Sequence record: CP025907.1
Direction: 5' to 3' (one strand)
From: Escherichia phage 204576
DNA: 31,521 nucleotides
In this document: positions 21,700 to 31,521 of the stretch, in pieces
Position numbering within the stretch: the first letter of the stretch is position 1
How the letters are laid out: each line of letters begins with the position of its first letter
Notes under the pieces: generated by a model
What the model was told of the DNA's origin: nothing
The model's input: the letters and a program-made list of their open reading frames with translations, nothing else
Database searches by the model: none
Position numbers and translations under genes: made by a program

Positions 21700-22050
21700 C
21701 CCCAAAAAAACGAAAAAGTTACAATCAAGTAAAAAATTCCTTCTGCAAAACTAAAAAAGATTTCAATAAAATCAGACAGTTAAAAACATAAAAAAAAGGT
21801 ACAAAAAAACATCTCAAAGTCTTGTTTTTTGCTTCAAATACAATTGGTTATTGTGTTTTTTGAAACCTACCAGTGTGGTACATGGATATCGATACCACGG
21901 CTAAGTACAAATCTGGTGTTACTACCGTAAAAGACTCGGTACGACTGGATCCGTGGGTGTTTATGTTCTCCGCAGGATATCGTTTTTAATTTTCTCTGCA
22001 AAACCTCTGCAAAACCCCTCTGCAAAACTGGTCATCAAATGACCAGTTTT
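21700..22050. other. Putative attP region with arm-type integrase-binding repeats
   Basis: AT-rich segment adjacent to the int 3' end; three tandem CTCTGCAAAAC repeats at 21994..22028 and one TCTGCAAAAC at 21742..21751; placement as in lambda attP. Confidence 0.55.
22024..22050. terminator. Palindromic hairpin overlapping the int stop codon (terminator or sib-like element)
   Basis: AAAACTGGTCAT-caa-ATGACCAGTTTT perfect inverted repeat flanked by A/T runs on both sides. Confidence 0.4.
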
Positions 22051-23165
22051 TTCCATTCCTTACCGCGTGCGTCGTTGTAAATATCGGTCATTTTTTGATT
22101 CGAATGGCCTAGCAAAATTTTGGTATCAACCCCCTGCTCTCTTAACAATCGCTCTGATAAAGATCTCTGCTCATGGAAAGAGGGAGGGGTGCCATTAGCA
22201 CGCCAGTTGTAATCCACAGAATCCCGGGCTTTTTTAAATGCAACGGTTAATGTTGCTGGCTTAACCATCCCGCCGCGCTTAGCTGTCCCTTTCGCGTGAT
22301 GGTGGTGCAATAGCCACGGACTAAGAACGCAATCGCGGCAGGATGACACCACATCATCCAGGGTGAGATTTAATTTATCGCAACGCAGAGCCAGAGGGAT
22401 GGCAATCCGGGTTCCTGTTTTTTGCTGTTCGACATGAAGATAACCATCCCGGATATCCGAAAATTGCATTTTGCAAATATCTGAAAGGCGCTGGCCTGTC
22501 ATCAGTGCCAGCAGCATACCGCGCTGTAAAAAGTAACCATCCTTTTCCGCTGCGTTATAAATCATCATCCACTCATCAAAAGTCAGTCGCTGTCTTGATA
22601 TCCGCACCTGCGGTTTTTTTGCCGATTCTGCAGGGTTAAAGCCTGGCGGGACATCGCCCGTTTGCTGAGCTTCCCGGAAAACATCGATCAGTACCTTCCT
22701 GAAAATTTGTCCCATTCTGTTATGTCCTCTGGCCTTGTACTCTTCCAGTACTGATACCACATCTTTTACGGTTATGGCATCTAACGGTCTGGTGCCAAAA
22801 CGTTCATCAAATACCCTGAGAGGGGCCGCTTTCTGTTTCAGCGTGTTGAGTTTGATCTCGCCGTTTTCATATCTTTCCTGTTGAATTTTTCTGTAATTAT
22901 TCAGAAAAATGGTAACGGTTGATGAACCGCCGGTATCACTAATAATTTTCTCCTGCAGACTGAGCATTTGTTCCATTTGCTGCCGGGCAAGACGGCTGTT
23001 CGCTTCTGCTGCAATAGTTTCTGCCAGTTTCTGGTCAATACTGCCGAGACCGTGATTTTTGCCTGTTATGGGATGCCTGTAACGCCAGTAAACTTTGTTA
23101 TTTCTTTTGTCAAAATACGGAGATAATCCCGGAACATTGGTTTTATATTTTCGCGGGCGCGCCAT
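22035..23165 (-). CDS. int: Tyrosine integrase (lambda Int family)
   Basis: Intact 376-aa ORF; C-terminal catalytic region (TFHE.RSLS.RL, LLGHSNQKMTDIYNDARGKEWKKL) parallels lambda Int (LLGHKSDTMASQYRDDRGREWDKI). Confidence 0.9.
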   Translation of the reverse strand: MARPRKYKTNVPGLSPYFDKRNNKVYWRYRHPITGKNHGLGSIDQKLAETIAAEANSRLARQQMEQMLSLQEKIISDTGGSSTVTIFLNNYRKIQQERYENGEIKLNTLKQKAAPLRVFDERFGTRPLDAITVKDVVSVLEEYKARGHNRMGQIFRKVLIDVFREAQQTGDVPPGFNPAESAKKPQVRISRQRLTFDEWMMIYNAAEKDGYFLQRGMLLALMTGQRLSDICKMQFSDIRDGYLHVEQQKTGTRIAIPLALRCDKLNLTLDDVVSSCRDCVLSPWLLHHHHAKGTAKRGGMVKPATLTVAFKKARDSVDYNWRANGTPPSFHEQRSLSERLLREQGVDTKILLGHSNQKMTDIYNDARGKEWKKLVI

Positions 23166-23391
23166 CTTCCAGTATCCTCTTCAAAGCAGGGTGATCTGTG
23201 GCGATCACCTCCGGCTTGTTTACCATTCCGACAAAGCGAGCTTGCGGATCCACTCGCCAGCGTCTTCCAACTTTTTTGGGGAGAGGAAATATCATTCCGG
23301 CTTTAGCGTATTTACTTAACGTACTCGGAGTTGGGACCGGTTCACTGAATTCCTCTTTTGCCCACTCAGTGAGCAGAATAAGTCTTGCCAT
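23143..23391 (-). CDS. xis: Excisionase (Xis-like)
   Basis: 82-aa ORF overlapping the int start by 23 nt; LTEWAK......P.P.TLSKYAKAGMIFP.PKKVGRRW resembles lambda Xis. Confidence 0.7.
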   Translation of the reverse strand: MARLILLTEWAKEEFSEPVPTPSTLSKYAKAGMIFPLPKKVGRRWRVDPQARFVGMVNKPEVIATDHPALKRILEDGAPAKI

Positions 23392-23455
23392 GAGCGTCGT
23401 TCGCTAATCATGGTCGCCGCCACTATAGCTGGTGGGCAACGACCGGGGTTGAACA

Positions 23456-25926
23456 TTAAAAATCAGCCTGATTCGGGATCAGTTTTTGCCAGATAACTGA
23501 AACGTATTTTGCCTGGTAACGGGCGTCATCAAGTGCATTATGGCGCTCACCTTCGAATGGAATAGCCGTTCTGGCATCGAAGTCTATGGCTTTCCCCAGC
23601 TCAACGATTGTGCGTACATCGCGATCGTTGTAGTAACGCCACGGGCAGGGGATCCCCTGCCGTTCGTATGAACGGCGCAAAATCGTGTTGTCGAAGTTGG
23701 CTCCATTTCCCCAGACATGAACAAAAAATTCACCGGAGTTTTCGTCGATAAATTCCCGCAATTGTAACAGTGCATCATCTAACGGGATTTCATCGGTCAT
23801 AATGGCAGACTGCGCTTCACGTGATTGCTTCAGCCACCTTTTAATGACGTCACGATCAATGACTCCGCCAGCAGTTTCCAGATCGATAGTCTTACTAAAT
23901 TCCGGTCCCATATCTCCGGTTTGCGGATCGAAAAATATTGCACCTATTGAGATAATCGGGGCATCAGGATTTTTTCCCATGGTTTCAAGGTCGATCATTA
24001 GATGGTCACACGTCCTGCTGGTGGATGTGATAACGTGATGACCGTTCATCGTAATTAAGGGATCTGCCGTCTCGCCAGTTTCACTATCGCTGGCGTGATC
24101 CTGAGCGCTACCAGCATTCTCCTTGTGTGGATGTTCAGCGCCTTCCATTTCCTTCGGATCATTTTCCTGAACTTCAACCTGATTCTCTTCATCGAATGTT
24201 TCCTGGTATGTTGCGTCACCCATCACCGCGCCACAATCAGGGCAGTTGCCGCCACCGCTTTGACCGCAGGCGGTGCAGACTTTTTCCGGTTCCTGTTGCG
24301 CTACTGGCTCAGGTTGTTTCGTTTCTGGCTCGTTTTGTAACGCATTTGGGCTGTTTTGTTCCGCTTTCTGGCCGTTCTGTTCCGTTTCTTGTTGGTTCTG
24401 ATTCACTGAATCGCGGGTTTCAATCCCCTTCACCCATTTCGGATCATTCGGGTCGCTAATCCCTGCAACAAATTCACCACGTGATACAGCAAGCAACTTA
24501 TTGGCGTCAGGCTGGCTGATATTGGCTGCCTGCATAATTTTGTTTACTTCGTCAGCGGTAACTTTTACCGGCTCTGGTTGTGCGATCGTGTCAGATGCAC
24601 CAGTATTTTGTTGTGAACCTGAGTATGTACTGTTTTTGCGGGCGAAATATTCTTCTTTCGTGATTTCAGTAGCCCCGGCAGCCAGCGCCTTATCCAGACC
24701 AGAAAGTTTGTTTGCGCGACCGTATTTTTCGCCATCCTTGTCGGTGAAGAGGAAGTAGAACGGCCCTTCACGCTCTACAGATGGTTCGACTTCCACTTTG
24801 CATTCGGTTTTTTCGTTGTCCGGAATTGCCGTTTCCACTGCATCAGTTTCTGGTACTGGCGACGAGAGAGTATCAGTTGCGCTCTGATTTCTTCCTTCAT
24901 CTTCAAACACGCCCTTTGTAGTCAGGTATTCAGTAATGTATTTGTTCAGTGCCACAGGGTCTTTGTGAATGTCGATCGGACGTTCACGGACAAGGCCAAA
25001 AATAGTCTGGCGGTCGTAGCGAAGGGCATCAGGCTGTTTGCGCATTGATGCCGAGATACGCTTCCAGTCTTCGCGGTCGTTGTCGATAACTTCATTTTTT
25101 GCCCAGCGATGGATGCTGCCGTCAATGTTTCCGGCATCCACATCACCAGGCCAGAGAGCGTAGGCCAGTTCGTCATCCAGTGTTTTCCATGTCTGCTTGT
25201 ATTCGCGATGAATGGCAGCAATGACCGGGCTGATTTTTCCTGTTGAATTTTCACTGTGCTGTTGATTGGTTCTGGCGCAGGCGAGATCAACAACAGACGT
25301 GTATTTTCCGGTTTCCTTGCGTTCACCTTCGCGACGTTTTTCCAGATGCGCATCTCTGCCTGAATTTCGGGCCATTTGGCACCAGGCTTACATTTATGCT
25401 TAACCCACCCGATGGCATGCAGCTTAAGCTCCGGATACATGGCGTTAACTTCTGGCATTTTCATCAACGCTTCAACGATATGTCCGTCGAATGTTGCCAT
25501 GTCTTCCTGCAACAATTCCTGTGCGCTAATAACCATATCAACGGTGATGTTTTCACATGTGTCGAACTTAACCATGACAGCGTTCTGTACTTCAGGGGAC
25601 AGCTTGTCAAAATTGACGTTCATCGGATCGGATTCTGGTTCGACTGGAATAAAGGAAGCGGATTCCTCATCCCAGCGGTTTTCCTGCATATATTCAGCAT
25701 CCCAGGAATCGAGGGCAGGGCGGGGTATACCGGGTTTATCCTCGCAGACAAGAAATTTATAAGCGCAGTCCTGAGCAGCCGGATAATGTTCCAGGAATTG
25801 CCAGTGAAATTTTGCGCGGGCGCGACGTTCATCACCGGCTTCAATGGCAGTGGCTACAGCGACGGCACCTTCTTCCTTTATTGCCTGTTCGTCCGGAATG
25901 GCGGCGCAAATAAAGACTTTACTCAT
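23456..25926 (-). CDS. Large exonuclease-like protein: acidic N-terminal domain, Cys4 zinc ribbon, C-terminal DEDDh (DnaQ-like) 3'-5' exonuclease domain; probably one frameshift near 25250-25375
   Basis: ORFs 24946..25926 and 23456..25375 overlap in different frames and both look protein-like near the junction. C-terminus carries DEDDh motifs (IDLETMG, VWGNGANFDNTIL, HNALDDARYQA) and a central CTACG...CPDCG zinc ribbon. Confidence 0.65.
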
Positions 25927-26205
25927 TTTGTTTTAACCTCATTACAGATTTCAGGGTGAACGAATCCCTGCCATTGCTGGCATTTTTAATCCGTTGGTAT
26001 GGCGTTAATATGGCTGGCGGGTTATCCAGCCGGTATTTCGTTATTCAGGTTCAGCGATACTTTTTTAACGGGAGGCATTCACCGGGGATTTTTTGTTCGT
26101 CCCTTACCTGAATGCAGGATGACTTACTGTCATAAATTCCGGTAATCACATTTTGTGGCTCACCCGTTATAAGAAAAACGGTCATCACCAGTGCAAATGC
26201 TGAAG

Positions 26206-26394
26206 TCACTGCTGTTCTCCGATAATACCAAGTTCAAGAAGGGCAATTCTGGAAAGTATGGAATTATCATTGAGAAGATAAGGTTCATATTTTCTCATCT
26301 TAATGGCATCTTCCGTAAACTCCCGGTTACTGAGCAGAACACCAATATCAAAACAACCTTCAGACGTATTAACGTTTGGTAATAACGTTTCCAT
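26206..26394 (-). CDS. dicB: DicB-like cell-division inhibitor (62 aa)
   Basis: METLLPNVNTSEGCFDIGV...TEDAI matches my recollection of E. coli Qin DicB (MKTLLPNVNTSEGCFEIGV...); GAGGA ribosome-binding site 7 nt upstream; same length (62 aa); immediately downstream of a DicF-like sequence. Confidence 0.7.
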   Translation of the reverse strand: METLLPNVNTSEGCFDIGVLLSNREFTEDAIKMRKYEPYLLNDNSILSRIALLELGIIGEQQ

Positions 26395-26563
26395 TATCGC
26401 GTCCTCAACAATGAATTTTGTGATGCGGTGCCTGGTGCCTCCAGGTGACGTTAACCAGTTAACAATTAACGCCGGATACAGAGAATCCACCCATAACACT
26501 GTTTTTGGTTTTAACTGTTCCGCGTGCGCTCAGCCGCATTCACCACATCACAAAATTCACTTT

Positions 26564-26621
26564 AAAAAGGGCGGCAGAGCAGTCACGGAGTAAAACTGAT
26601 ACCGCCAAACGTCACCAGAAA
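26564..26621 (-). ncRNA. dicF: DicF-like small RNA with intrinsic terminator
   Basis: Minus-strand sequence UUUCUGGUGACGUUUGGCGGUAUCAGUUUUACUCCGUGACUGCUCUGCCGCCC followed by UUUUU; matches recalled 53-nt DicF (ftsZ-targeting sRNA) and sits directly upstream of dicB as in the Qin operon. Confidence 0.75.
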
Positions 26622-26961
26622 ATTGATAACAGAGGGCGTTGCAGCGGAGTTGTCACTTAAGCGTATGGTCAACCTGACAACCCGGTGTCCTCAACGGAGG
26701 AAGGAATAACCCGCCATACTTACCGCCGCGCCATTTCGCGGATTGCCACAACCGGAAGCGCACGGTCGACGAAAATTTAACGACAGGCTATCTATGAACC
26801 AGCTACCTCGCCGTGCGCTTTCGCGTTATGGTCTGACTTTTCAGGGAAATATCCTTTCAGTAAACTGTCAGTGCCGGATGCTCACCCGTGTCCGGCGCAC
26901 GCACTCCACCTCACCCGTGGAGAACTCCTTAATTACTAACCTTAGCTTTGTTGATTAGCTA

Positions 26962-27180
26962 CTAACGCGGGTATGTAATCATTCTGGCAATGCTTAATGC
27001 CGCTGCTTTTTCCAGATTGGTGATATCCTGCTCCAGAGCGGACAGATTTTCAGCCTGCTTAGCCCTGGTTTCATTGGCCCATTTCAAATCCTGCGCTGCA
27101 TTAATTTTCTGGCGCATCCACTCATAAAGTTCATCATCGGTATAGTCTGGCGCGATGATGACGGGTTCTCGTTTCTGCAT
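26962..27180 (-). CDS. YdfC-like small protein (72 aa)
   Basis: GAGGAA ribosome-binding site; 72 aa, the same length and operon position as ydfC in the Qin dicB operon; no independent sequence recall. Confidence 0.55.
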   Translation of the reverse strand: MQKREPVIIAPDYTDDELYEWMRQKINAAQDLKWANETRAKQAENLSALEQDITNLEKAAALSIARMITYPR

Positions 27181-27209
27181 ACTGATTCCTCGCGGTGCTG
27201 TTTCGCTTA

Positions 27210-27338
27210 TCAGCCGTTAGATTTTGCCGAACTGGAAAGCACCTGTTTAAATTCGTTGAAGCTGTGAGCTTCTTCGCCTTCGGCAAGGCCTTCGAAGTAT
27301 TCTTCGTAAGCCTTTTCCATGATTGTGTCAAAATCCAT
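27210..27338 (-). CDS. YdfB-like small acidic protein (42 aa)
   Basis: ATG 1 nt after the upstream stop (TGAtATG), AGGTGA ribosome-binding site; MDFDTIMEKAYEEYFEGLAEGEEAHSFNEFKQVLSSSAKSNG; length and position match ydfB of Qin. Confidence 0.45.
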   Translation of the reverse strand: MDFDTIMEKAYEEYFEGLAEGEEAHSFNEFKQVLSSSAKSNG

Positions 27339-27339
27339 A

Positions 27340-27495
27340 TCACTCACCTGAGTTTCTTTCCAGCCAGCGACGGGCACCATTTTCGGTTTGAAACGTTTTG
27401 CTTTTGGTATACGTCATCGCGGTGAACGTACCGTCCTGGTTGGGGAACACGCCACATACCAGAGATTCGCTGTTGCCAAGATCGATAGTATCCAT
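27340..27495 (-). CDS. YdfA/YdaF-like DUF1391 small protein (51 aa)
   Basis: Internal start MDTIDLGNSESLVCGVFPNQDGTFTAMTYTKSKTF with a GAGGT ribosome-binding site; 51 aa, first gene of the leftward operon as ydfA is in Qin. Confidence 0.55.
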   Translation of the reverse strand: MDTIDLGNSESLVCGVFPNQDGTFTAMTYTKSKTFQTENGARRWLERNSGE

Positions 27496-27674
27496 GCTGA
27501 CCTCATTTCCCCTTAACGCCGGGGTAGCGGAACAAAAACCTGCTGCATAGTTATTAAAGTTGAACCCTGCCGTCATGTTCTTACGCCTCGGGCTGGCTAC
27601 TTAACCCCTGACCACTGCCTGGTAACTCGAAGTATTGCCCTGCATTCTGTGGGGTGGGGAGAGGGAATGAATGA

Positions 27675-27703
27675 AGTTTAGAAAAATGAACTTTTTATGT
27701 CAA
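27675..27703 (-). promoter_or_regulatory. Candidate pL-like promoter for the leftward early operon
   Basis: Minus-strand TTGACA (27703..27698), 17-nt spacer, TAAACT (27680..27675); located between the repressor gene and the ydfA-like gene. Confidence 0.35.
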
Positions 27704-27787
27704 TGTTTTTTTATCAAAACATTTTAAGCAGGCAGCTGTTAAGCCATCACCACGATGGCATACAGTTAATCAAATAGATGAGGTCGG

Positions 27788-28425
27788 TTAAATATCTTGT
27801 TGAATTTTAAAGCATACGCCCAATATGCAAGATAGATCATCCAGCATAATTGAAGGGTAGCGAGGATTCGTGGGGACTAAAAGAATATCCGGCCCTTCTA
27901 TCTCCAGTTTACGAATGACAGGTGTTGTGGTCCCTTTGGGTAAGGCAAGGACAATATTTCCTGGTTGTACGGTTCGATCGGGATCAACAAAAACTGTTGA
28001 ACCATTTGGGATGGAAACTCCCCCACCAGATGTTGACATACTGTCACTCTCTAGAACAACTGCAAAGGTATTGGCCGGGATTTCTCCGACAAGCTGCACA
28101 CAAGAGGTTATTGAGGAATTTTTCATATAATCACTCCAGCTTGCTGCCTGCTGAAGTGATAGTAGCGGAACCGTTTTTATCGGCGGTAAAGATAGATCAA
28201 GCGAATCACTGTATTTAACTCTCCTCCATTAAGAAGCCAATTTTCGTTTACTTTCAATATTTTTGCCAGTGAACTTATGTAACGCGAGGACGGCGCTCCT
28301 CCACCGTTCATCCATTGACTTACGGAGCCTTTTGATGCGCCAGTGGCATTGACAAGGTCTTTGCCTTTCAGGTTTAGCGCATGCATACGTTGGGTTATGC
28401 GTTCAGATATTGTTTGCTTGCTCAT
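27788..28425 (-). CDS. cI-like repressor (N-terminal HTH plus C-terminal S24 LexA-type peptidase domain); one frameshift near 28180-28228
   Basis: HTH ORF 28177..28425 (LKGKDLVNATGASKGSVSQWMNG); S24 frame open from 28228 to 27788 with linker VPLLSLQQAAS, nucleophile region LESDSMS and lysine region PVIRKLE. Confidence 0.75.
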
Positions 28426-28458
28426 GTTTTGATTTTAAAACACAGATGGTTTTGTTTC

Positions 28459-28487
28459 TTGACTTTCTTTGGTTTTGATTATTAAAC
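28459..28487 (+). promoter_or_regulatory. Candidate pR-like promoter upstream of the cro-like gene
   Basis: TTGACT at 28459..28464 with a TATTAA/TTAAAC -10-like element 15-17 nt downstream; TGGTTTTG direct repeats nearby may be operator half-sites. Confidence 0.3.
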
Positions 28488-28516
28488 TTTTGGCGTTCAG
28501 TTTTATGGAGCGACTC

Positions 28517-28747
28517 ATGAAAAAATCAGAAGTATTAGGCTATTTTGGCGGAGTTGTTAAAACAGCCGCAGCTCTAGGAACGTCAAAAACCACAGTCAGC
28601 ATGTGGGGGGAAGAGGTTCCGTGGAAATGGGCGTTGCTAATTCAGGCAGTCACTGCCGGGGCGCTCAAATATGAGTTACACATACCGACGGTTGTCATTC
28701 CCGGTTCTGATCATAATCCGCCTTCTAACCAAGGGGGGGATTCATGA
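28517..28747 (+). CDS. Cro-like HTH regulator (DicC/YdaS-like, 76 aa)
   Basis: MKKSEVLGYFGGVVKTAAALGTSKTTVSMWGE HTH motif; divergent from the repressor; GGAG ribosome-binding site. Confidence 0.65.
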   Translation: MKKSEVLGYFGGVVKTAAALGTSKTTVSMWGEEVPWKWALLIQAVTAGALKYELHIPTVVIPGSDHNPPSNQGGDS

Positions 28748-29168
28748 AAATCAAGCATGAACACATCCGCATGGCGATGAATGCCTGGGCGCGTCCTGAT
28801 GGCGAAAAAGTTCCGGCAGCTGGAATAACCCAGGCTTATTTTGAGTTGGGTATGACGTTTCCTGAACTGTACGACGACAGCCATCCGGAAGCCCTGGCTC
28901 GCAATACCCAGAAAATTTTCCGCTGGATAGAGAAAGACACCCCTGATGCAGTTGAAAAATTCAGGCGTTGTTACCAGCGATCGAAAAGGCAATGCCACCT
29001 TTGCTGGTGGCCAGAATGCGCAGCCACAGTTCAGCTTATTTTCGGGAGCTGGTGGAGACGCGGGAGCGACTGGTGAGAGACGCTGATGATTTTGTCGCAG
29101 TGGCAATCGCCGGTTTCAATCAGATGAACCGTGGTGGCCCGGCAGGAAATGCTGTGGCAGTACATTGA
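28744..29168 (+). CDS. YdaT-like protein (proposed CII functional analogue); frameshift near 28970-29000
   Basis: N-terminus MKIKHEHI matches my recollection of Rac YdaT; combined length about 141 aa (YdaT is 140 aa); start overlaps the cro-like stop (ATGA). Confidence 0.5.
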
Positions 29169-29233
29169 CTGACAATAGCCATATCGAATCGCTTCCGGCA
29201 ACTCGTGAGTAAAAAGATTCGGTATCAGAAGAG

Positions 29234-30231
29234 GTGAGTATGGCTAACGCCTGGCTCAGATTATGGCATGACATGCCAAATGACCCTAAGTGGCGAACAA
29301 TTGCCAGGGTGTCAGGGCAGCCAATTGCAACAGTGATGGCAGTGTATATCCACCTCCTGGTGAGCGCGTCACGAAATGTCACGCGAGGTCACATTGATGT
29401 CACGACAGAAGATTTGGCAAGTGCGCTCGACGTGACAGAAGAGGTAATTGATTCAATTTTGCAGACGATGCAGGGGCGGGTACTTGATGGTGATTTAATC
29501 ACTGGATGGGAAAAACGCCAGGTGCTTAAAGAGGACAACGGCAATATTTCGCAACCGCAAAATCTCCTGCAGAGCGCAAGAGGGCGCAGCGAGAGAGGGA
29601 AAGAAAGCGGGAACAAAATGGCGATTGTCACGGCACGTCACGAAATGTCACGCACATGTCACGACGAGTCACGACAGATAAAGATACAGATAAAGATACA
29701 GATCAAGAAGATCAAAACACTATGGTCCATGGCGTAAAAAACGCCACGAACCAGGCAGGGGATGTTCAGACCGTCAATCTTGGTCAGCCAGCAGGCACGA
29801 CACCGGAAGCCGATTCAGCGTATGCGCTGAAAGCCGATTCGGGCGCTGTGCAGCAGGTGATGACCGCAAGGCCGGAGCAATCACACCAACTGCAGCAGCC
29901 TGAAGCCGATTCCGCCATTCAGCGGGAAGCCGATCGGGTAGTCCCGGAAAACACCGGGCAGTCTGTGGGACGAGTGGATTATCCGGATGTGTTCGAACAG
30001 GTCTGGCGGGAGTACCCGTTGCGTGCTGGGGCAAACCCGAAGAAATCCGCTTTCAGTGCCTGGAAGGCCAGATTACGCGAGGGGGTGCCACCAGAGGCCA
30101 TGCTGGATGGCGTGAGGCGTTACGCAAGATACTTGGCGGCTACCGGGAAAACGGGAACGGAATTTGTTCAGCGAGCGACGACGTTTTTTGGACCGGACCG
30201 GAATTTGAGAACTCCTGGTTGCTCCCGGTAA
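29234..30231 (+). CDS. Replication initiator (phage O-like replisome organiser) containing internal origin iterons; frame change inside the second iteron cluster
   Basis: ORFs 29234..29737 and 29656..30231 overlap in different frames across the iterons; position after the cro/cII-like genes as for lambda O; ori-within-gene architecture. Confidence 0.6.
29368..29405. repeat. Iteron cluster 1: four GTCAC(G/A) repeats at 10-11 bp spacing
   Basis: GTCAC at 29368, 29378, 29388 and 29399. Confidence 0.7.
29627..29720. repeat. Iteron cluster 2 (five GTCACG repeats at about 10-bp phasing) plus A-rich GATAAAGATACA tandem repeat; candidate replication origin
   Basis: GTCAC at 29627, 29637, 29647, 29658 and 29668, then gataaagatacagataaagatacagatcaagaagatcaaaac. 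Confidence 0.7.
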
Positions 30232-30348
30232 GCGGCACGAACAACCAGCGTTGTGTGAATCATATTTCTGAACCGGATAACGAAATTCCGCCGGGCTTCA
30301 GGGGGTAAGTGTTAATTTCTGGTCATGAGGTAATTTTCAGGAGGGCTT

Positions 30349-30747
30349 GTGGCAAAAGTTTTTACACAAGAAGAGCGGGAAAAAATTAAAGGACAGGTTG
30401 TTGAACTCGTACGCCAGAGTGGGCGTGAGACGTTACGGCAACTGGAAGTCAAGACAGGTGCGACAAGATATCTGATGAGCGTTCTCGCAAGAGAGCTGGT
30501 TGCCAGCGGCGATGTATACAACTCTGGTTACGGGTTATTCCCGTCTGAACAGGCGCGTAAGGACTGGCAAAATGCCCGTAAAAAGCTCTCAAGGGCAAAG
30601 CTGAAGAAACCATCTGCGGTTGATCCGGACCTTATCTGGTCATTACCTGACGGAGAAATACGTCGCTACGACAGGCGTCAGAACATAATCTGTCGCGAGT
30701 GCGGAAGAGTGAAGTTATGCAGCGCATATTGTCGTTTTATCAGGTGA
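30349..30747 (+). CDS. Hypothetical protein with C-terminal Cys cluster (CRECG...C..C)
   Basis: GTG start 5 nt after AGGAGG; 132 aa; no family recognised. Confidence 0.5.
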   Translation: MAKVFTQEEREKIKGQVVELVRQSGRETLRQLEVKTGATRYLMSVLARELVASGDVYNSGYGLFPSEQARKDWQNARKKLSRAKLKKPSAVDPDLIWSLPDGEIRRYDRRQNIICRECGRVKLCSAYCRFIR

Positions 30748-30915
30748 TGTTCGGTATTTATTGAAGTGACGAGATTAAAGTGCATTAGTTCAGATGCAAA
30801 TTGACATTTTGTGGCACAGGGTAGAGCTAGCGTGGTTGTCCGCTTTGTGCCAACAGCGGACATTATAGATGGTATATGTAGAAAGTGAACATGCGTAGAT
30901 TGTATGATTTAGCCG

Positions 30916-31152
30916 TCACTTAATTATTGGATAACTCACACAAGTATGACCGTTGCTTATCGCATACATTTGGTTTCCCTTAAGATTTACAAATGGAAAT
31001 GTCGTATACTCATAATTTATAGAGGTCATATTAAATGTAAGGAATTTATCTTCAAGTTCTAATTTTGTAGAGTGGGCAGGGTATGTTCCTTCATTTTCAT
31101 TGTGATAATAAACCGATAGGAAAAAAATGTAAAGCACAAATAAATGCCACAT
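30916..31152 (-). CDS. Hypothetical small protein with hydrophobic N-terminus inside the AT-rich terminal segment
   Basis: ORF only (78 aa), LFVLYIFFLSVYY hydrophobic stretch; low GC. Confidence 0.25.
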   Translation of the reverse strand: MWHLFVLYIFFLSVYYHNENEGTYPAHSTKLELEDKFLTFNMTSINYEYTTFPFVNLKGNQMYAISNGHTCVSYPIIK

Positions 31153-31521
31153 GTCCTTCGTTCATAAATGCTACACTTTGAGCGGATATGTGCATTCTGT
31201 GTGGGTAAAACCAGTAGTAAATATCATGAGTTTCTCAAAACTTGAATTTTTACCCAAAACATAATCCTTTAAAGGTGTATAGAAGGGGCTATCTACGGGT
31301 TCTTTTTTACAATCTTCAACTGAAGTTGCTGATAGCACGTGCCCAATCATAGCCTTAGTGAAAGATATGCTATCAAAGGTATTCTAATGAATGGATATAC
31401 ATTCATACCATTCATATATCGACTTAACTGTTCTTTAAAGGACTTTGTTACATTTTCAATTGCAACATCGAGCCCACCTAATACCTTATTGTTACAGTGG
31501 CTGCAAATGGTTCTGAAATAA

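What the first reader, a model, noticed from the sequence alone, without database searches (positions are those of the whole stretch)
29234..30231. Origin iterons inside the initiator gene, with the frame break located in the iteron array
Two clusters of GTCAC(G) repeats with helical phasing (4 copies at 29368..29405, 5 copies at 29627..29675) lie inside the initiator coding region, the second followed by an A-rich tandem repeat (GATAAAGATACA x2 plus GATCAAGAAGATCAAAAC). This resembles the lambda arrangement of ori iterons plus an AT-rich unwinding element within O. The two overlapping ORFs (29234..29737, 29656..30231) switch frame exactly within cluster 2, so iteron copy-number change or slippage could toggle initiator integrity, or the assembly is wrong in the repeats. 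The N-terminal domain is encoded partly by iteron cluster 1.
Basis: seen in the sequence. Interest (0 to 1): 0.45.

Follow-up and report, generated by a model that had tools for sequence, protein, structure and literature searches.

The report
Phage origin repeats; frameshifts are sequencing errors
The short GTCAC repeats inside this phage replication gene are real and very probably its replication origin, but the "broken" reading frame comes from single-base sequencing errors elsewhere in the gene, so the locus is an ordinary, already annotated phage replication module.

Summary
The repeats are real. GTCAC(G) units spaced 10-11 nt form two arrays (29368-29404 and 29627-29673) plus one inverted copy, followed by an A-rich (GATAAA/GATACA)n tract.

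In about 45 of 59 homologous loci from many genera, the same two-array-plus-tract layout is kept. Synonymous sites inside the repeats are frozen. The repeat unit switches (GTCACG / GTAACG / CGAACG) in both arrays together. This supports origin iterons plus an unwinding element inside the initiator gene, as in lambda O and SPP1 gene 38.

The frame-break claim is wrong. The gene (29240-30308) is interrupted by two 1-nt homopolymer deletions, at 29552 (AAA to AA, 75 nt upstream of array 2) and at 30203 (TTTT to TTT). Neither lies in a repeat. The window carries about 90 such indels against 17 substitutions relative to a finished E. coli genome, so these are assembly errors. Restoring the two bases gives a 356-aa protein identical to an annotated "phage replisome organizer", whose protein cluster holds 5,786 database sequences.

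Natural changes in iteron number always stay in frame.

Side lead: this is an "O-only" replication module, and its initiator ends in a DnaT-like tail.

The parts
29240..30308 (+). Replication initiator gene ('phage replisome organizer', 356 aa when intact). In this window it is split over three frames by two 1-nt deletions.
   Evidence: It corresponds to the annotated CDS L001:3091-4161 (WP_089516821.1). Adding one A at 29552 and one T at 30203 gives a translation identical to that CDS. It is a full-length match to phrog_3729 'replication initiation protein', E = 7.7e-257. A GAGGTGA Shine-Dalgarno sequence lies 5 nt before the ATG at 29240.
29368..29404 (+). Iteron cluster 1: four GTCAC(G) units at 10, 10, 11 nt spacing. 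It encodes the loop at aa 43-55 (SRNVTRGHIDVT) of the winged-helix domain.
   Evidence: The same positions (nt 129, 139, 149, 160 from the ATG) occur in most loci of the GTCAC subgroup across about 20 genera. Third codon positions inside the units are 0.95 conserved against 0.54 outside, p = 1.3e-5. The region is a loop with lower pLDDT in the model.
29431..29436 (-). Single inverted GTCACG copy, 27 nt downstream of cluster 1.
   Evidence: Found. A GTGAC at nt 193 from the ATG (181 in loci whose match starts at residue 5) recurs in most GTCAC-subgroup loci.
29551..29552 (+). Frame break 1: AA where intact copies have AAA (codon 105). It lies 75 nt upstream of cluster 2.
   Evidence: Seen in the alignments to L001/L002/L003. 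The repair restores the ORF.
29627..29673 (+). Iteron cluster 2: five GTCACG units at 10, 10, 11, 10 nt spacing. It encodes aa 130-145 at the start of the disordered linker, with the unit read in all three frames (CH / SR / VT).
   Evidence: Homologs carry 3-7 copies at the equivalent place. Across all subgroups the spacing is 10 nt in 151 cases and 11 nt in 36. The linker is predicted disordered.
29674..29721 (+). A-rich, purine-skewed tract, (ACAGATAAAGAT)x2 plus GATCAAGAAGATCAAAAC. It is the putative DNA-unwinding element and encodes (DK/DT)n, aa 146-161. It contains two GATC sites.
   Evidence: It is the least stable 40-mer in 28400-31000 (dG -44 against a mean of -55.4, sd 4.1), in the top 0.4% of the window, and 75% purine. 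An AGATAAAGATAAAG-type tract follows cluster 2 in all three iteron subgroups, even in genes of 60-66% GC.
29723..29753 (.). Imperfect inverted repeat (13-nt arms, 5-nt spacer, core GGCGTAAAAAACGCC) just after the A-rich tract. Its role is unknown.
   Evidence: It is pair I16. Its conservation in homologs was not examined.
30201..30203 (+). Frame break 2: TTT where intact copies have TTTT (codon 322).
   Evidence: Seen. The repair restores the C-terminus ...FFGPDRNFENSWLLPVSG....
30231..30305 (+). Coding region for the C-terminal 25 residues (SGTNNQRCVNHISEPDNEIPPGFRG), which match the extreme C-terminus of host primosomal protein DnaT.
   Evidence: NCBIfam DnaT NF002770 positions 156-179, E = 6.7e-4. 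PDB 6aep, 2ru8 and 9zbt_D DnaT chains. The tail is invariant in O-like proteins with unrelated N-domains.

Best explanation
The region is the replication module of a temperate lambdoid E. coli phage (Tritos-like, a DicB/Qin-type early region).

One gene, 29240-30308, encodes the initiator. It has an N-terminal DnaD-NTD-like winged-helix domain, a long disordered linker, a helical C-terminal domain and a DnaT-like tail. The phage origin lies inside this gene. It consists of two arrays of GTCACG iterons phased at one helical turn. The second array abuts an easily melted, purine-skewed (GATAAA/GATACA)n tract.

Inferred mechanism: initiator molecules bind the phased iterons on one face of the helix and oligomerise, possibly bridging the two arrays about 260 bp apart. 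They open the adjacent A-rich tract. Their C-terminal part then brings in the host helicase-loading machinery, because the phage carries no helicase or loader gene.

Shown here: the iterons sit where the protein tolerates arbitrary sequence (a surface loop and a disordered linker) and are under DNA-level selection.

The apparent split into overlapping ORFs is not biological. It results from two single-base homopolymer undercalls at 29552 and 30203, two of about 90 such errors in this window.
For: Frame breaks are errors:
- Window 21871-31521 against the finished genome NZ_CP025916 has 0 substitutions and 14 one-base homopolymer indels.
- Window 1-21991 has 65 deletions, 11 insertions and only 17 mismatches.
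- Neighbouring genes (YdaT-like, DUF977) are broken in the same way.
- Repairing the two bases yields exactly the annotated 356-aa protein.
- 1,646 E. coli genomes carry at least 80% of this segment. The 99%-identical protein P0121 represents a cluster of 5,786 database sequences named 'phage replisome organizer'.

Origin:
- The local excess of GTCAC has P = 1.7e-10.
- The same two-array layout occurs in homologs of 58-99% identity from about 20 genera.
- Third codon positions inside the iterons are 0.95 conserved against 0.54 outside, p = 1.3e-5.
- The unit is read in three frames.
- The unit changes to GTAACG or CGAACG in other subfamilies, in both arrays at once, with the same 10/11-nt spacing.
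- The A-rich tract is the stability minimum of the region and is conserved even in GC-rich hosts.

Protein:
- phrog_3729 'replication initiation protein'.
- The model places the arrays in a loop and in the disordered linker.

Helicase recruitment:
- No helicase or loader gene is annotated in the prophage stretch examined, from the integrase to the antiterminator gene.
- The tail matches the DnaT C-terminus.
Against: - There is no experimental evidence for binding, unwinding or autonomous replication for any member of this family. I found no paper on it.
- The N-domain misses the curated cutoff of TIGR01714 (15.4 against 49.8 bits) and has no Pfam hit.
- The helix in the usual 'recognition' position is acidic. 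No residues outside the iteron-encoded loop track the iteron type. How, or whether, this domain reads the repeats is therefore unclear.
- The function of the extreme DnaT tail is not stated in the preprimosome paper I read.
- Without the raw reads I cannot formally exclude that the indels are real.
Confidence: 0.78

Rival explanations
1. The frameshifts are genuine mutations. On this reading the initiator, YdaT-like and DUF977 genes are pseudogenes of a decaying, defective prophage.
For: Cryptic prophages do accumulate frameshifts. The reference prophage itself has several genes annotated as frameshifted in the lysis and terminase region. Another frameshifted variant of this gene exists in databases (P0026).
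Against: The window has about 90 one-base indels against 17 substitutions, and 0 substitutions in the 9.6 kb around the gene. The indels are overwhelmingly deletions in homopolymers. Real decay would give far more substitutions than indels. The window joins the right and left prophage arms across the attachment overlap at 21871-21991, so it is an excised or circularly permuted phage genome, which implies a recently active phage.
Confidence: 0.05
2. This is a contingency locus. Slipped-strand gain or loss of 10-11-nt iterons shifts the frame and switches the initiator on and off.
For: The unit lengths of 10 and 11 nt are not multiples of 3, so a single-unit change would shift the frame. Iteron copy number does vary among alleles.
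Against: Neither frame break lies in an array. All natural variants seen are frame-preserving: +21 nt (two iterons, 7 codons) in E. albertii and in P0123, P0142 and P0225; a 12-nt tract unit in P0122; and an in-frame 54-codon deletion in P0140. The iteron count in this window equals that of the intact reference.
Confidence: 0.02
3. The repeats are functional DNA sites but not, or not all, origin iterons. For example, cluster 1 could be an autoregulatory or copy-control (handcuffing, incompatibility) array, or the sites could bind a different protein.
For: Two arrays 260 bp apart resemble the origin-plus-control iteron sets of plasmids such as P1 and F (my own knowledge). Some homologs (L043, L062) have only cluster 2, so cluster 1 is dispensable for some relatives. 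No N-domain residues outside the loop track iteron type.
Against: Cluster 2 directly abuts the conserved low-stability tract, which is the classic origin layout. Both arrays switch unit together and occur only with this N-domain. Nuclease fusions of the same domain lack them. This rival differs from the best explanation only in the role assigned to cluster 1.
Confidence: 0.12
4. The repeats are only a by-product of a repetitive or low-complexity peptide that the protein needs, with no DNA-level function.
For: Both arrays lie in coding sequence, and the (DK/DT)n tract looks like a flexible charged linker.
Against: The same DNA unit is translated in three different frames (SR, VT, xH). Synonymous positions inside the units are frozen while neighbouring ones vary. 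AT-rich codons are kept in GC-rich hosts. The units are helically phased, not codon-phased.
Confidence: 0.03

Closest known systems
Bacteriophage lambda ori within gene O (and the O/ori of Stx lambdoid phages)
   Same: The origin lies inside the initiator gene (PMC6022878 abstract; PMC7466680). It has direct repeats bound by the N-terminal domain, followed by an AT-rich region. The repeats fall at the domain/linker boundary. The genomic position is the same: cI - cro - cII-like - initiator.
   Different: The N-domain has no detectable sequence homology to lambda O, with no Pfam hit. The units are 6 bp at 10-11 bp spacing in two arrays, rather than four 19-bp units in one array (the lambda details are from my own knowledge). 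There is no P gene, and the C-terminus carries a DnaT-like tail instead of a P-binding domain.
Bacillus phage SPP1 replisome organizer G38P and oriL
   Same: [quoted passage not shown] NCBI gives this protein the same name. The NCBIfam model TIGR01714 ('phage replisome organizer, putative, N-terminal region') aligns end to end with aa 5-125 but scores below its cutoff. From my own knowledge, not checked here, the description of that model says the protein's low-complexity region reflects origin repeats.
   Different: The TIGR01714 score is below its cutoff (15.4 against 49.8 bits). SPP1 also encodes its own loader gp39 and helicase gp40, whereas this phage encodes neither. SPP1 has a second, distant origin (oriR), whereas here both arrays are in one gene.
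'O-only' lambdoid replication modules (e.g. phage LLS; 34 of 314 phages)
   Same: There is a single initiator gene with no helicase or loader. PMC12315714 states that these are unstudied and that their replication is 'not yet understood'. Tritos, which is 98.3% identical here, is in that paper's phage set.
   Different: That paper describes the LLS initiator as a lambda O homolog. The N-domain here is a different family. Whether LLS has the DnaT-like tail was not checked. HannyBb, which has an O-like initiator followed by a Ren-like gene rather than a loader gene, does have the tail.
Host primosomal protein DnaT, and O-like proteins with a DnaT C-terminal motif (DopC)
   Same: The last 22-25 residues match the DnaT C-terminus. 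Some relatives fuse the same N-domain to a full Pfam DnaT domain, PF17948. An O-like N-terminus combined with a DnaT C-terminal motif was noted for DopC (PMC5509034).
   Different: Only the tail matches here: 19.3 bits against the 201-bit equivalog cutoff. No iterons were detected at the dopC locus. DnaT acts in PriA-dependent restart, not at an origin.
RepA_N-type plasmid initiators / DnaD N-terminal winged helix
   Different: The similarity is structural only and is barely above that to generic winged-helix regulators. No sequence-level membership was found.

Membership tests
Iteron-type phage origin embedded in its initiator gene (lambda O/ori, SPP1 gene 38/oriL kind) | An array of at least 3 direct repeats inside the initiator coding sequence | tested here: met
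   There are 4 + 5 GTCAC(G) units, plus 1 inverted copy, inside 29240-30308.
Iteron-type phage origin embedded in its initiator gene (lambda O/ori, SPP1 gene 38/oriL kind) | Repeats under DNA-level selection, conserved in relatives independently of the coding requirement | tested here: met
   Synonymous sites are 0.95 conserved inside against 0.54 outside, p = 1.3e-5. The positions are conserved in about 20 genera. The unit switches concertedly in both arrays.
Iteron-type phage origin embedded in its initiator gene (lambda O/ori, SPP1 gene 38/oriL kind) | An adjacent AT-rich, easily melted region (DUE) | tested here: met
   29675-29715 is the stability minimum of the region and is in the top 0.4% of the window. 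The tract is conserved in all iteron subgroups.
Iteron-type phage origin embedded in its initiator gene (lambda O/ori, SPP1 gene 38/oriL kind) | The initiator binds the repeats, and the fragment supports autonomous replication | not testable with these tools
   This needs EMSA or footprinting and a plasmid replication assay. No literature on this family was found.
Lambda O protein family (sequence homology) | A match to the lambda-O-type N-terminal domain model in Pfam | tested here: not met
   There is no Pfam hit other than a sub-threshold HTH_Crp_2 match, E = 0.063. The lambda-O-like protein of HannyBb aligns only in the C-terminal part.
Phage replisome organizer, N-terminal region (NCBIfam TIGR01714) | HMM score at or above the curated cutoff | tested here: not met
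   15.4 bits against a cutoff of 49.8, E = 0.016, although the alignment spans the whole model (aa 5-125 to positions 1-119 of 119). RefSeq nevertheless names the protein 'phage replisome organizer'.
Phage replisome organizer, N-terminal region (NCBIfam TIGR01714) | A DnaD-NTD-like winged-helix fold followed by a low-complexity region that mirrors DNA repeats | tested here: inconclusive
PHROG 3729 'replication initiation protein' | A full-length profile match | tested here: met
   E = 7.7e-257, aa 1-356 against profile positions 1-356 of 356.
DnaT (primosomal protein 1) | An equivalog-level match over the whole protein, or the Pfam DnaT domain PF17948 | tested here: not met
   NF002770 scores 19.3 bits against a cutoff of 201, and only positions 156-179 align. 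There is no PF17948 hit for this protein, although some relatives have it.
Slipped-strand contingency (phase-variable) locus | The frame disruption maps inside the repeat array, and close relatives differ by frame-shifting copy-number changes | tested here: not met
   The breaks are at 29552 and 30203, outside the arrays. The copy-number variants seen are all in frame.

The most novel reading that the evidence does not exclude
Self-referential specificity. The only N-domain residues that track the iteron type (GTCACG, GTAACG or CGAACG) lie in the loop at aa 45-55, and that loop is itself encoded by iteron cluster 1. If this loop helps read the repeats, the same nucleotides would be both the binding site and the code for its specificity determinant. 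A change in cluster 1 would then alter site and reader together, and would spread to cluster 2 by conversion. That would be a built-in route to new replicon specificities.

A second, more probable novelty (about 0.4) is that the DnaT-mimicking tail lets the initiator recruit the host primosome or DnaB-DnaC directly. This would explain how 'O-only' lambdoid phages replicate without a loader.
Probability: 0.12. Interest if true: 0.75.

Novelty: new member of a known kind. Interest (0 to 1): 0.3.

Why it matters
For this finding, mainly as a caution. Overlapping ORFs in a repeat-rich gene invited a phase-variation story, but the cause is homopolymer undercalling that affects the whole contig, so every 'split gene' in this window should be distrusted.

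On the positive side, the comparison defines a probable origin for a very common family of proteobacterial prophages, found in thousands of E. coli genomes. The origin has a bipartite array of phased 6-bp iterons plus a conserved (GATAAA)n tract, and at least three iteron 'alleles'. None of the four annotated GenBank/RefSeq records I inspected marks it, and I found no paper on it.

The module is also of the 'O-only' type, whose replication was recently called not understood. The DnaT-like tail is a concrete, testable handle on how such phages obtain a helicase.

Tried and rejected
- Pfam scan of the intact initiator: no usable hit.
- A first Pfam call failed because of a frame error in my coordinates.
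- A first alignment script failed on a missing file.
- Foldseek against the PDB: no significant hit, best E = 0.59.
- Sequence search of the PDB gave only the DnaT tail and a designed-repeat protein, which I judged spurious.
- Literature searches for iterons of this family returned only unrelated papers. The terms were 'replisome organizer' + iterons + prophage, 'gtcacg' + iteron, and replisome organizer + direct repeats + lambdoid.
- The preprimosome paper does not say what the extreme DnaT tail contacts, so I could not assign the tail a partner.
- Programmed ribosomal frameshifting was considered and rejected, because intact homologs simply have one more base at each site.
- I looked for specificity-determining residues in the helices of the winged-helix domain. 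None was found outside the iteron-encoded loop.
- I did not use the representative-protein HMM search, the metagenome scan or the viral-contig scans. The genome scan already gave 59 diverse loci.

Full report
**1. What is in the sequence**

GTCAC occurs on the + strand at 29368, 29378, 29388 and 29399, and again at 29627, 29637, 29647, 29658 and 29668. An inverted GTCACG lies at 29431-29436. Spacings are 10 or 11 nt. Over the whole window GTCACG is not enriched (19 observed, 15.4 ± 3.9 expected), but 9 of the 19 sites lie in these 310 nt. From the flank frequency of GTCAC (35 in 30,771 nt), the Poisson probability of at least 9 copies in 310 nt is 1.7e-10. A tandem ACAGATAAAGAT ×2, plus a degenerate third copy, follows directly at 29674-29708. 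The repeat observation is therefore correct.

**2. The frame break**

The two listed ORFs exist, but their overlap within cluster 2 is an accident of where an ATG and a stop codon fall. The second frame is already open from 29530, and a third frame carries the C-terminus.

Megablast against complete E. coli genomes gave 1251 window bases aligned to 1253 reference bases at 99.8% identity. The base-by-base comparison with E. coli 120899 (L001/L003) and with phage Tritos (L002) shows zero substitutions over window 21871-31521. There are 14 one-base homopolymer indels, 13 of them deletions.

- Two indels fall in this gene: AAA→AA at 29552 (codon 105, 75 nt upstream of cluster 2) and TTTT→TTT at 30203 (codon 322).
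- Others break the neighbouring YdaT/cII-like gene (28954) and the DUF977 gene (30701, 30742).
- The left 22 kb of the window shows 65 deletions, 11 insertions and only 17 mismatches against the same genome.

An indel-to-substitution ratio of about 5:1, with a deletion bias in homopolymers, is the signature of an unpolished error-prone assembly, not of gene decay. Restoring the two bases gives a 1071-nt ORF (ATG 29240 to TAA 30308, preceded by a GAGGTGA Shine-Dalgarno sequence). Its translation is identical to the annotated 356-aa 'phage replisome organizer' WP_089516821.1. The 99%-identical protein P0121 represents a cluster of 5,786 database sequences with that name, and 1,646 of 5,426 complete E. 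coli genomes hold at least 80% of the segment.

**3. Context**

The gene order is dicB/dicF/ydfC, a LexA-like repressor, cro, a YdaT/cII-like gene, the initiator, a DUF977 (Ren-like) gene and hokD. This is the early region of a lambdoid temperate phage. The window joins the prophage's tail end to its integrase end across an overlap at 21871-21991. It therefore represents the excised or circularly permuted phage. No helicase or helicase-loader gene is annotated in the prophage stretch examined, from the integrase to the antiterminator gene.

**4. Are the repeats functional DNA?**

I collected 59 genomic loci encoding homologs of the N-terminal domain from Gamma-, Beta- and Alphaproteobacteria and a few other phyla.

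- In the subgroup at 58-99% identity, spanning about 20 genera, GTCAC units in most loci start at nt 129, 139, 149 and 160 from the ATG. An inverted copy lies at nt 193, and 3-5 (rarely more) further copies lie at about nt 370-480, mostly 387-430. The flanks hold about one copy per 1-2 kb.
- In 16 genera, third codon positions of invariant residues inside the iterons are 0.95 conserved, against 0.54 outside (Mann-Whitney p = 1.3e-5).
- The same unit is translated in all three frames (SR, VT, xH), so the peptide is a consequence of the DNA and not the reverse.
- Other subfamilies carry GTAACG or CGAACG(C) units instead. These again form two arrays at the equivalent places with the same phasing: over all loci the spacing is 10 nt in 151 cases and 11 nt in 36.
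- The protein alignment shows the same concerted switch: 'SRNVTRGH..VT' with 'CH..SRNVT', against 'NATERGRTQ' with 'NAAERKRT'.
- Relatives in which the domain is fused to HNH or GIY-YIG-like nucleases have no arrays.
- An AGATAAAGATAAAG-type tract follows array 2 in all three subgroups, even in genes of 60-66% GC. In this window it is the least stable 40-mer of the immunity/replication region (ΔG −44 against −55.4 ± 4.1). It is in the top 0.4% of the window, is 75% purine on one strand, and holds two GATC sites.

**5. The protein**

The intact protein is a full-length match to phrog_3729 'replication initiation protein'. It has no Pfam hit. It also has a below-cutoff but end-to-end alignment to TIGR01714, the 'phage replisome organizer' N-terminal region.

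An AlphaFold model built on 38 sequences has a mean pLDDT of 64, with both domains scoring higher.

- It gives a confident winged-helix-like N-domain (aa 1-97), a disordered linker (aa 129-244) and a helical C-domain (aa 245-330).
- Cluster 1 encodes the H1-H2 loop (aa 43-55).
- Cluster 2 and the tract encode the start of the linker (aa 130-161).

The last 25 residues match the extreme C-terminus of DnaT. This tail is invariant in O-like proteins that have unrelated N-domains and different repeats: PhiR5_2, and HannyBb with GGTCAAAATG ×4.

**6. Mechanism**

Shown: conserved, phased, DNA-selected repeats in two arrays; a conserved low-stability tract next to array 2; an initiator-family protein encoded over them; and no phage helicase or loader gene.

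Inferred:
- The initiator binds the iterons, oligomerises and melts the tract, by analogy with λ O/oriλ and with SPP1 gp38/oriL. [quoted passage not shown]
- The C-terminal part recruits host helicase-loading factors. The DnaT C-terminal domain docks on PriA and filaments on ssDNA, and DnaT is suspected to recruit DnaB/DnaC. What the extreme tail contacts is not stated there.

A 2025 survey notes that 34 of 314 lambdoid phages have only an O-type gene and that their replication is 'not yet understood'. Tritos, 98.3% identical here, belongs to that phage set.

**7. Slippage idea**

Iteron number does vary in nature, but only in frame-preserving steps.
- +21 nt (two iterons, 7 codons) in E. albertii and in several E. 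coli and Yersinia alleles.
- ±12 nt in the tract.
- One in-frame 54-codon deletion removing most of array 2 and the tract.

No variant with a frame-shifting copy number was seen, and this window has the same copy number as the intact reference.

**8. Open point**

Residues that discriminate the iteron subgroups lie almost only in the loop encoded by cluster 1. The helix in the canonical recognition position is acidic. Three readings remain open:
- The protein reads mainly the shared ACG core (GTC-ACG / GTA-ACG / CGA-ACG).
- The loop contributes to specificity, which would be a self-referential arrangement.
- Something else reads the repeats.

This cannot be settled computationally here.

**9. 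Verdict**

The observation of repeats is correct, and the origin interpretation is well supported. This is a new, uncharacterised member of the well-known 'iterons inside the initiator gene' kind. The frame-break-in-iterons claim is an artefact of homopolymer sequencing errors. Overall interest is low to moderate. The O-only module with a DnaT-like tail and the concerted iteron switching are the parts worth following.

Noticed in passing
window 1-31521 (whole window): The window has about 90 single-base indels (78 deletions, 12 insertions, mostly in homopolymers) against only 17 substitutions relative to E. coli 120899. Many ORFs across the window will look split. The source looks like an unpolished error-prone assembly.
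   Followed up: yes
window 21871-21991: The alignments to the two ends of the chromosomal prophage overlap here by 121 bp, next to a duplicated ompW 3' fragment in the reference. The window is therefore the excised or circularly permuted phage, with the attachment site in this interval.
   Followed up: partly
window 28744-29168 and 30349-30771: The YdaT/cII-like gene is broken by A6 to A5 at 28954. The DUF977 / Ren-like (LygF) gene is broken by two deletions at 30701 and 30742. G7 instead of G6 at 28727-28733 alters the end of the cro-like ORF.
   Followed up: partly
window 30231-30305; L004:1900-2982; L005:1598-2563: The 19-residue tail RCVNHISEPD(N/T)EIPPGFRG, equal to the DnaT C-terminus, is shared by initiators with three unrelated N-domains. 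Two of them (this one and HannyBb) have no loader gene next to the initiator, and one (PhiR5_2) is followed by a DnaC homolog, which mirrors the host dnaT-dnaC operon order.
   Followed up: partly
L049, L060, L064; proteins P0043, P0061, P0062, P0074: The same N-terminal domain, with the WLRLWHDMPNDPKWRT motif, is fused to HNH domains or to GIY-YIG-like sequences in some bacteria. Those genes lack iteron arrays, which suggests the domain is reused as a DNA-targeting module of nucleases.
   Followed up: no
L005:1947-2099 (phage HannyBb): A different O-like initiator carries GGTCAAAATG x4 at 23-24-nt spacing, followed by an A-rich TACAGAGAATA(C/A)AA x2 repeat. The 'iterons then A-rich repeat' grammar recurs with a different unit and period.
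   Followed up: partly
protein P0140 (E. coli, 302 aa): This allele has an in-frame 54-codon deletion running from inside iteron cluster 2 through the A-rich tract into the linker. It is likely an origin-dead copy in a defective prophage.
   Followed up: no
window 29723-29753: An imperfect inverted repeat (core GGCGTAAAAAACGCC) lies immediately after the A-rich tract, reminiscent of the palindrome to the right of lambda's AT-rich region (from my own knowledge). Its conservation was not examined.
   Followed up: no
window 27788-28425 (- strand): The repressor appears as two ORFs, an HTH part (28177-28425) and an S24-peptidase part (27788-28126). One indel lies at 28208. The reference genome annotates only the 112-aa peptidase part, whereas Tritos annotates a 139-aa CI.
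   Followed up: no
L063 (Collinsella MAG), L028 (Anaerolineaceae MAG), P0019 (Staphylococcus saprophyticus): Fragments of this proteobacterial phage gene sit on very short contigs assigned to unrelated phyla. L063 and P0019 are 99-100% identical to the E. coli gene, and L028 is about 68% identical. This probably reflects contamination or mis-binning.
   Followed up: no
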